The position numbers and the translations under genes were made by a program. A stretch of 64,000 bases of DNA, from the NCBI RefSeq assembly GCF_006345805.1, contig NC_042998.1, positions 166,780,001 to 166,844,000 of the forward strand, given 5' to 3'. The DNA is from Octopus sinensis (lineage: Eukaryota). Under the pieces are notes generated by a model. The model saw nothing but the letters and a program-made list of their open reading frames with translations. It had not been told where the DNA came from and ran no database searches. Position 1 is the stretch's first letter, and every line of letters starts with the position of its first letter. This document shows, one piece after another, positions 44,973 through 45,852 of this stretch.

Positions 44973-45010
<38 letters not shown>

Positions 45011-45806
45011 TTGATGTGGGGTATCGCACGAGTGGGATTGGATTATAAGAAAAAAGGTTTGAAAATGCAATTTAAACGATGTTTATTTACTTAACCGGTT
45101 TCACTCTTTGGTAAAAGATTGTCAAAAGTTACATTTAAGGAAACATTGGAATAATATGGGTTCAAAAAAAGTTTTTTACATAATTGTCACATTGAATATT
45201 ATGCATTCAAAAAAGTTTTTTACATAATGTCACATTGGATATTATGATTCAAAAATGTTTTTTTATACATCTACAGAATATTTTAAGTTCAAGGCGAGAA
45301 TATGTTTTTACTGACTGTCGGTATTAAAAACATATTATCGCCTTGAACTTAAAATATTTTATGAGAGGTATTAAAAAAAATCCATTTTAATTTTTGCTGT
45401 CAAAAGGCTGTATATATATTCCAAAAGATTGTATATATATACAGTAATGTGACAATTTGCGACAACCATAATTAACGCAACCAATTCCAATAATTATATT
45501 TGTTTTATCCTTTTCTGCCAAATTTCCCAAATATCTCATCACACTATTGAACTTCTCTGTACCAAACACTATTTTTATACATGTAATGTGACAATATGTA
45601 TAAAAAAAACATTTTTGAATTCATTAATATCCAATGTGACAATTATGTAAAAAACTTTTTGAATGCATAATATTTAATGTGACAATTATGTAAAAAACTT
45701 TTTGAACCCATATTATTCAATGTTTCCTTAAATGTAATTTTGACAATCTTTACCAAAGAGTGAAACCGGTTAAGTAAATAAACATCGTTTAAATTGCATT
45801 TTCAAA

Positions 45807-45852
<46 letters not shown>

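What the first reader, a model, noticed from the sequence alone, without database searches (positions are those of the whole stretch)
45008..45814. Nested fold-back element with two outward-facing U3-A8 hammerhead-like motifs
Seen: an ~800-bp insert inside the (TA)n of a SINE, with ~220-bp inverted arms, ~45-bp subrepeats and a second 34-bp hairpin inside. Each arm has a motif of the form actt TTGACAA tcttt..aaaga gt GAAA CCGG TT aagt (minus 45089-45129; plus 45736-45775, where stem I is damaged). The core TTGACAA replaces the C3-G8 pair with the compensatory U3-A8 pair, a known natural hammerhead covariation. Stem III is the palindrome AACCGGTT. Inference: an inverted pseudo-LTR arrangement of a Penelope-like element. 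Any transcript would form long dsRNA, a potential ADAR or siRNA substrate.
Basis: partly seen in the sequence, partly recalled or inferred. Interest (0 to 1): 0.72.

Follow-up and report, generated by a model that had tools for sequence, protein, structure and literature searches.

The report
Back-to-back Penelope ends with hammerheads
This palindrome is two cut-down ends of a young Penelope-type jumping gene joined back to back inside a TA repeat; each end carries an already known variant of the hammerhead RNA motif, which likely cuts the element's RNA now and then, because rare genomic copies stop at the predicted cut.

Summary
Observation confirmed. The 807-bp insert is two 5'-truncated 3' ends of a young Neptune-type Penelope-like element (RT, CX4CxxC linker, GIY-YIG) joined head to head in a SINE's (TA)n. 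The 'nested' 34-bp hairpin is the inversion centre, shifted off-centre by a 232-nt deletion in the left arm.

The hammerhead is real by comparison: 10,404 U3-A8 matches against 130 control, and stems covary across families. Stem II opens with a U.U mismatch. Both features are published.

In 42 of 45 two-armed copies one arm has the ~40-nt tail and the other lacks it, and both ends fall at TA tracts inside the element. This suggests priming from both target strands. In 37 tiny palindromes, 17 of 74 arm ends lie at the predicted cut (null 7-9), some with foreign filler or stutters. That hints at rare cleavage in vivo; only about 1-2% of arms end there. Cleavage, transcription and editing are untested, and no A>G footprint was found.

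The scan found the two-site rule, the cut-site scars and the ORF1 frameshift before, on other DNA. Verdict: new member of a known kind, with useful mechanistic footprints.

The parts
44753..44947 (+). 5' half of the host SINE-like repeat
   Evidence: 72.6% match to the uninterrupted copy at 44000-44400; repeat families D15 and D19
44948..45007 (.). left (TA)n target tract
45008..45049 (-). ~42-nt Penelope 'tail', on the left arm only; bounded by two TA tracts that are part of the element
   Evidence: in 7 tandem copies the tail runs through (TA)3-6 into the ORF1 leader
45050..45270 (-). left arm, distal part: 3' end of the element, sense on the minus strand
45089..45129 (-). minimal type I hammerhead motif: 4-bp stem I, U3-A8 core, U10.1.U11.1 mismatch, 5-bp stem II, palindromic 2-bp stem III; predicted cut between 45093 and 45092
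   Evidence: the exact 32-mer occurs 349 times in the genome
45143..45263 (-). 43-44-nt subrepeats of the element's 3' region (left arm)
   Evidence: present in the parent element; function unknown
45259..45270 (-). junction of a private 232-nt deletion between 12-nt direct repeats
   Evidence: found in no other locus held
45271..45326 (-). left arm, proximal part, ending at the inversion junction
45277..45358 (.). 34-bp hairpin, the centre of the original palindrome; 2-nt TA overlap at 45325-45326
45325..45814 (+). right arm: ~490-nt 3' end of the element, no tail
45604..45723 (+). 43-44-nt subrepeats (right arm)
45736..45775 (+). second hammerhead motif; one base missing in stem I and one in stem II relative to the family, possibly consensus errors
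45814..45851 (.). right (TA)n target tract
45846..45967 (+). 3' half of the host SINE-like repeat
   Evidence: repeat families D17 and D6

Best explanation
The insert is a protein-free, two-armed copy of the 3' end of a young Neptune-type Penelope-like retrotransposon, likely made when the element's enzyme nicked both strands of a (TA)n tract and primed two cDNAs at two TA tracts about 40 nt apart in the RNA; its hammerhead motif is predicted to be a slow, dimer-dependent ribozyme that likely cuts only a small share of the RNAs. Shown: family identity, linked RT and GIY-YIG frames, (TA)n targeting, one tailed and one tailless arm, TA tracts inside the element at both end sites, short microhomology at the central junctions, conservation and covariation of the motif, and an excess of arm ends at the predicted cut. 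Inferred: twin priming by base pairing; joining of the two aborted cDNAs by microhomology so that each templates the other's second strand; ribozyme cleavage. This copy reads through both motifs, so it would have been copied from uncut or religated RNA, and in a read-through transcript its motifs would be locked in double-stranded RNA.
For: RT PF00078 E=2.9e-08 and GIY-YIG PF01541 E=6.7e-05 between the same arms. DKG, CX4CxxC and CCHH motifs are visible in the translations. Median substitution divergence is 0.6% over 58 arms. Tail/no-tail in 42 of 45 two-armed copies, p=4e-10; 32 of 37 tiny palindromes are tail/no-tail, 4 are tail/unclassified, 1 is none/none and 0 are tail/tail. The ORF-bearing arm has the tail in 9 of 17. 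The central overlap is >=2 nt in 9 of 19 junctions against 20.5% expected, p=0.008. U3-A8 pattern 10,404 vs control 130; U.U subclass 2,027 vs 0. Stem I is >=3 bp in 27 of 36 distinct spacers against a shuffled mean of 13.2 and a maximum of 20 in 2,000 shuffles; position 17 is never G (0 of 36). One lineage holds both C3-G8 and U3-A8. 17 of 74 arm ends fall at 0..+2 of the predicted cut, a count reached in 2 of 840 null simulations with means of 7-9. A second family has 16 of 44 ends at -2..+2 and 3 at +3..+7. Foreign fillers abut the cut (L248, L258, L263, L277, L288), and stutters restart at it (L255, L259).
Against: Rfam gave no hammerhead hit up to E=10. The predicted minimum-energy fold of the monomer is not the hammerhead, and the dimer fold pairs an 8-bp palindrome that includes A14-U17. 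G10.1-C11.1 and the extra base after A9, both typical of PLE min-HHRs, are absent. Only 5 arms lack U before the cut against about 380 arms of the young subfamily, and 1 of the first 100 listed arms ends at the cut. The pile-up could come from RT stalling at a folded RNA. Covariation counts are inflated by shared descent, and unpaired 3-8 combinations exist (C3-A8 327, U3-G8 357, with one amplified U3-G8 subfamily). In Anolis Poseidon, initiation is at sites not homologous to the target, and HHR mutants do not affect insertion in vitro (PMC11167929). The null model for arm ends is my own and the family B step was not simulated.
Confidence: 0.75

Rival explanations
1. Same Penelope origin, but in this lineage the hammerhead is a non-cleaving relic or protein-binding fold, and arm ends gather near the 'cut' because reverse transcriptase stalls at the base of the structure.
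For: Two departures from the consensus core (U3-A8 and U.U); the monomer misfolds in silico; about 98-99% of arms read through the site; metazoan min-HHRs cleave poorly in vitro (PMC4209133).
Against: Position 17 varies among A, C and U but is never G in 36 spacers. Both variant features are reported as compatible with activity (PMC3088659 passages). Foreign sequence shared by both arms starts at the cut (L248, L263, L288), which fits an RNA end better than a stall.
Confidence: 0.3
2. The two arms come from one cDNA that folds back or self-primes, or from an antisense template, not from two priming events.
For: Self-priming was proposed for Penelope palindromic junctions (PMC3846280 passages). 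Junctions centred on the ACCGGT palindrome occur in 3 of 37. Fillers shared by both arms could be fold-back copies.
Against: A fold-back copy does not by itself explain why the two outer ends use different fixed sites in 42 of 45 cases, or why the tail is on the ORF arm in only 9 of 17. The two arm lengths vary independently from about 130 to 5,700 nt.
Confidence: 0.2
3. A non-autonomous DNA transposon (MITE or foldback type) with terminal inverted repeats and subterminal transposase-binding repeats; the motif is a chance variant of the TGACAA subrepeat.
For: Long inverted arms, subrepeats containing TGACAA, and TA targets.
Against: The arms are variable-length 3' ends of an RT/GIY-YIG element; the ends are asymmetric; families without this sequence keep the motif at the same place downstream of the endonuclease.
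Confidence: 0.02
4. The palindrome at this locus is an assembly artefact.
For: This copy is unusually rich in indels, and no public contig bridges its junction.
Against: It has the family's tail/no-tail asymmetry, a clean SINE on both sides, and a junction like those of other copies. An artefactual fold-back read would mirror the flanks as well.
Confidence: 0.05

Closest known systems
Neptune (or Nematis) clade EN+ Penelope-like elements (Craig et al. 2021, PMC8557442, passages; Arkhipova et al. 2013, PMC3846280, passages)
   Same: RT then CX2-5CxxC linker then GIY-YIG with CCHH; DKG motif; pLTR partial tandems; adjacent inverted 5'-truncated copy; 30-40-bp tail at one end; microsatellite targeting; hammerhead in the pLTR.
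   Different: Two overlapping ORFs joined at an in-phase U_UUU_UUA, where canonical EN+ PLEs are described as single-ORF (the Fig. 1 legend of PMC8557442 mentions an ORF1 frameshift for some PLE types; figure not seen). About 2.3-kb microsatellite-like 3' region. Clade not tested by tree.
Minimal type I hammerheads of metazoan PLEs, including the U3-A8 variant of Schistosoma Cercyon (Cervera and De la Pena 2014, PMC4209133, parts 1-2 of 4 read)
   Same: Short stem I (4-6 bp), palindromic short stem III, U3-A8 core, pairs on opposite strands 100-700 bp apart.
   Different: No G10.1-C11.1 pair and no extra base after A9; U10.1.U11.1 followed by C-G instead. In this genome the U3-A8 form outnumbers C3-G8 about 40-fold among GAAACCGGT motifs (10,404 vs 264; the spacer ranges differed slightly).
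Natural hammerhead variants with U3-A8 or with a U10.1-U11.1 mismatch (Perreault et al. 2011, PMC3088659, passages)
   Same: Both features are described as natural; U-U is the best tolerated mismatch at that pair.
   Different: The passages read do not describe the two together or in a Penelope element; figures and supplements were not seen.
Poseidon of Anolis, PAc (Frangieh et al. 2024, PMC11167929, parts 1-2 of 4 read)
   Same: Two reverse-transcription start sites that bound the tail; both target strands cut and extended; uncut RNA is the main template.
   Different: PAc starts at sites not homologous to the target, whereas both end sites here are TA tracts that match the target. No reads ending at the PAc cut were found, whereas here some genomic copies end at the predicted cut.

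Membership tests
EN+ Penelope-like element | PLE-type RT with DKG motif | tested here: met
   PF00078 E=2.9e-08; EADKG in P0001; in linked copies, not in the window
EN+ Penelope-like element | C-terminal GIY-YIG endonuclease with CCHH | tested here: met
   PF01541 E=6.7e-05 on the fragment, but not reported on the 685-aa frame; Cys and His residues read
EN+ Penelope-like element | pLTRs in tandem and inverted arrangement | tested here: met
   L045, L169, L173
EN+ Penelope-like element | 30-40-bp tail at one end | tested here: met
   42 of 45 two-armed copies
EN+ Penelope-like element | single ORF | tested here: not met
   ORF1 (448 aa) overlaps the RT-EN frame in -1 at TTTTTTA in 19 of 22 loci with a hit; the other 3 are truncated 3' of the site
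Neptune/Nematis clades | CX2-5CxxC linker between RT and EN | tested here: met
   CX4CxxC
Neptune clade | microsatellite-targeted insertion | tested here: met
   nearly all outer ends printed run into (TA)n or a related microsatellite
Neptune clade | RT phylogeny with reference Neptune rather than Nematis | not tested
Minimal type I hammerhead | core boxes with a paired 3-8 position and GAAA, NUH with H not G | tested here: met
Minimal type I hammerhead | stems I and II supported across families | tested here: met
   stem I 27 of 36 vs 13.2 shuffled; stem II 17 of 20; relatedness not removed
Minimal type I hammerhead | G10.1-C11.1 pair and extra base after A9 | tested here: not met
   U.U mismatch in this subclass; a known tolerated variant (PMC3088659)
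Minimal type I hammerhead | palindromic stem III/loop 3 for dimer formation | tested here: met
   self-duplex -8.3 to -10.1 kcal/mol
Minimal type I hammerhead | self-cleavage | not testable with these tools
   indirect only: arm ends at the predicted cut
Rfam hammerhead families | score against the curated models | tested here: not met
   no hammerhead family among 41 hits at E<=10
Non-LTR retrozyme | tandem non-coding units each with a hammerhead | tested here: not met
   the arms are inverted truncated ends of a coding element
MITE / foldback DNA transposon | fixed symmetric TIRs, no RT | tested here: not met
   variable arm lengths, asymmetric ends, RT between the arms

The most novel reading that the evidence does not exclude
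Neptune elements prime both target strands telomerase-style, by pairing nicked (TA)n ends with two TA tracts in their own RNA, which explains the tail and the inverted arms without a separate second-strand primer. Their doubly variant hammerhead (U3-A8 plus U.U) does cut in the germ line, and the cut 5'-OH end is sometimes joined to other cellular RNAs, leaving chimeric palindromes; the same 10-nt foreign sequence lies at the cut in two different families (L248, L263).
Probability: 0.3. Interest if true: 0.68.

Novelty: new member of a known kind. Interest (0 to 1): 0.42.

Why it matters
The insert itself is an ordinary truncated Penelope-like copy. The family around it matters more. It gives countable footprints for two open questions in PLE biology: how the tail and inverted arms arise, and whether the weak metazoan minimal hammerheads cut in vivo. 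A young family (0.6% divergence) with a strict one-tail rule, TA tracts at both start sites and copies ending at the predicted cut makes both questions testable with short RNA constructs. It also shows that more than 10,000 hammerhead-type motifs in this genome escape C3-G8 descriptors; the one in this window also had no Rfam hammerhead hit.

Tried and rejected
Rfam scan of 44500-46300: no hammerhead, only hairpin look-alikes below their gathering scores. MITE/foldback reading rejected. Public runs: no RNA holder listed, all shares <=0.17. Contigs of 5 runs show the family at high depth but none bridges this copy's junction; no verdict on artefact, polymorphism or expression. Editing footprint: 7 A>G vs 17 T>C private changes, p=0.06, no excess. 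No PLE protein match in the window itself. A listing of window ORFs showed no evident host gene (not scanned against Pfam). Pfam on ORF1 gave only DUF6022 below its cut-off. Rfam did not identify the 65-nt filler of L277. After I first read the low count as 'no pile-up at the cut' (note); changed this to a small but enriched class. Literature searches (listings only unless stated): Neptune+Penelope+octopus, Penelope-like+frameshift+slippery (0 papers), Penelope-like+twin priming (3 papers, none on PLEs by title), Penelope+hammerhead+cleavage site+truncation+template jump. None showed a report of genomic copies ending at a PLE hammerhead cut. Lunse et al. (PMC5785218) was not held and is known only through PMC6765202 passages; it, Arkhipova 2006 and the unread supplements of PMC4209133, PMC8557442 and PMC3088659 may already hold these variants.

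Full report
Observation. The region is as described: arms 45050-45270 and 45596-45814, 43-44-nt subrepeats, a 34-bp hairpin and two outward-facing motifs. It sits in the (TA)n of a SINE-like repeat whose uninterrupted relative lies at 44000-44400. The left end has 42 extra bases. The host is a 2.7-Gb animal genome; that it is an octopus is my inference from the repeat landscape and was not tested.

What it is. A search of the own genome gave 1,201 candidates, of which 40 were scored; the best copies are 94% identical and often occur as inverted pairs. Between such pairs lie frames with RT (PF00078, E=2.9e-08) and GIY-YIG (PF01541, E=6.7e-05), separated by a CX4CxxC linker. L045 shows the full textbook layout: inverted copy, direct pLTR, ORFs, pLTR with tail. 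This is what Craig et al. describe for Neptune/Nematis-type elements (PMC8557442, passages); Neptune against Nematis was not tested by tree. Aligned to the 3' end of L031, the window element is a left arm in antisense (tail included, with a 232-nt deletion between 12-nt repeats) and a right arm in sense without tail, meeting at a 2-nt TA overlap at 45325-45326. The inner hairpin is therefore the centre of the original ~500-bp palindrome. The family is young: median substitution divergence 0.6% in 58 arms from 34 loci. The window copy is an outlier (17 indels and 7 substitutions against medians of 1 and 2 in 28 copies), which looks like an unpolished consensus. Public contigs neither confirm nor refute this junction.

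The hammerhead. Rfam does not find it and the monomer does not fold into it in silico, so I tested it by comparison. The pattern with U3-A8 and GAAACCGGT matches 10,404 times against 130 for the reversed control. C3-G8 gives 264 (spacer 10-24), C3-A8 327 and U3-G8 357; these counts follow family copy number and are not independent events. Families with 45-60% protein identity and different stems carry the motif at the same place, downstream of the endonuclease and 45-130 nt before the (TA)n end. Among 36 distinct U3-A8 spacers in the loci held, stem I has >=3 bp in 27 (shuffled partners: mean 13.2, 0 of 2,000 reach 27), and position 17 is A, U or C, never G; relatedness inflates the first figure. 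One lineage has both C3-G8 and U3-A8. U3-A8 in PLEs is published (PMC4209133, parts 1-2 of 4); U3-A8 and U10.1-U11.1 are each published as natural and compatible with activity (PMC3088659, passages).

How the insertion is made. Of 81 stretches examined, 44 gave 45 pairs of outer ends. I dropped those with one or no end in view, and two (L038, L182) in which one end is an internal pLTR. Of the 45 pairs, 42 have one tailed and one tailless arm (p=4e-10); the exceptions are L142, L168 and L218. In 37 tiny palindromes, 32 are tail/no-tail, 4 tail/unclassified and 1 none/none. The ORF-bearing arm has the tail in 9 of 17 scorable cases (read; test), so neither site is tied to the longer arm. Both end sites are TA tracts inside the element: in 7 tandem copies the tail continues through a short TA run into the ORF1 leader, and other families show an internal TA tract at the first site as well. 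Central junctions overlap by >=2 nt in 9 of 19 (L031 as reference; its own junction and one duplicate dropped) against 20.5% expected. I infer twin priming: both nicked strands of the self-complementary target pair with the RNA, one at each tract, and the two aborted cDNAs anneal and template each other. Two start sites and extension of both strands were shown for Anolis Poseidon, but there without homology to the target (PMC11167929, parts 1-2 of 4). Self-priming is the published alternative (PMC3846280, passages).

Does the motif cut? Mostly not before copying. Only 5 arms lack U before the predicted cut, against about 380 arms of the young subfamily; 3 of the 5 are truncations at the cut and 2 are mutated motifs. 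Among the first 100 arms listed, 1 ends there. Among all 37 palindromes with <=90 nt between anchors, 17 of 74 arm ends lie at 0..+2, against 21 at -8..-1, 12 at +3..+8 and 7 at +9..+20. Seven smooth null models scored in the same way gave means of 7-9 and reached 17 in 2 of 840 runs. A second family (24 matches, 22 after removing duplicates) has 16 of 44 ends at -2..+2 and 3 at +3..+7 (not simulated). Foreign fillers start at the cut in L248, L258, L263, L277 and L288, and short stutters restart at it in L255 and L259. This fits run-off from a cleaved RNA, but stalling at a folded RNA is not excluded, and an earlier scan note (e1-9827944) found a motif-free site hit equally often in another genome.

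The dsRNA claim. A read-through transcript would fold back at about -370 kcal/mol and would pair 39-40 of the 40-41 nt of the sense motif to the other arm, so this copy's ribozymes would be off. No transcript is shown, and there is no A>G excess in copies.

Beyond the coordinates. The parent has two ORFs. ORF1 (448 aa in L173) overlaps the RT-EN frame at an in-phase T_TTT_TTA in 15 loci of this family and 4 loci of a family with about 53% identity, 19 of 22 in all; the other three are truncated. A -1 frameshift is likely, but the site is followed by G in both families, so a splice acceptor is a rival. The scan has noted this in other genomes.

Verdict. A new member of a known kind. Architecture, tail and both hammerhead variants are in print. 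The quantified one-tail rule, the TA-tract end sites and the cut-site scars were not seen in my paper searches (listings and the passages named), but the scan has found them on other DNA. Recently active PLE families are already reported in Octopus vulgaris (PMC13282606, passages). I also read part 1 of 5 of bioRxiv 10.64898/2026.07.22.740005 and passages of PMC6765202. Interest 0.42.

Noticed in passing
L173:2215-3561 and 3519-5831; L031 ~5670 (minus); L073, L155, L156, L157: ORF1 overlaps the RT-EN frame in -1 at an in-phase T_TTT_TTA kept in two families about 53% identical; likely a programmed frameshift, with a splice acceptor as rival.
   Followed up: partly
L248:1534-1543 and L263:1532-1557: The same 10-nt foreign sequence lies at the predicted cut on both arms of tiny palindromes from two different families; its source RNA is unknown.
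   Followed up: partly
L277 ~1530-1595: A 65-nt filler between two arms starts at the predicted cut; it resembles 18S rRNA from recall only, and Rfam did not identify it.
   Followed up: partly
L061-L075, L150, L151: A ~360-bp tandem/inverted repeat family holds both C3-G8 and U3-A8 cores with the same stems; retrozyme-like, and noted by the scan before.
   Followed up: no
genome-wide: An amplified subfamily has a U3.G8 wobble core.
   Followed up: no
L031:1740-3368: The element's 3' region includes about 1.6 kb of conserved TG/TA microsatellite-like sequence shared among copies.
   Followed up: no
L045, L173 (between pLTR and ATG): ORF1 starts about 35 nt after the tail; the hammerhead lies about 120-150 nt upstream of the ATG, so a cut in the downstream pLTR would separate both start sites from the body unless the RNA is circularised.
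   Followed up: no
window 45143-45263, 45444-45459, 45583-45723: The motif AATGTGACAAT recurs through the pLTR subrepeats; it may be a protein-binding or promoter element.
   Followed up: no
L039: Two near-identical two-armed units lie in tandem with the same junction, suggesting a later duplication or an assembly duplication.
   Followed up: no
window 10799-11164 (-), 20308-21012 (-): Decayed ORF fragments that look like a LINE C-terminus and a MULE-type transposase (recalled, not scanned).
   Followed up: no
window 2208-2574, 52577-53339, 61576-62034: Tandem arrays of a 156-234-bp repeat of a second SINE-like family.
   Followed up: no
L048:2-1639: A C2H2 zinc-finger array gene lies about 7 kb from a copy of this family.
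   Followed up: no
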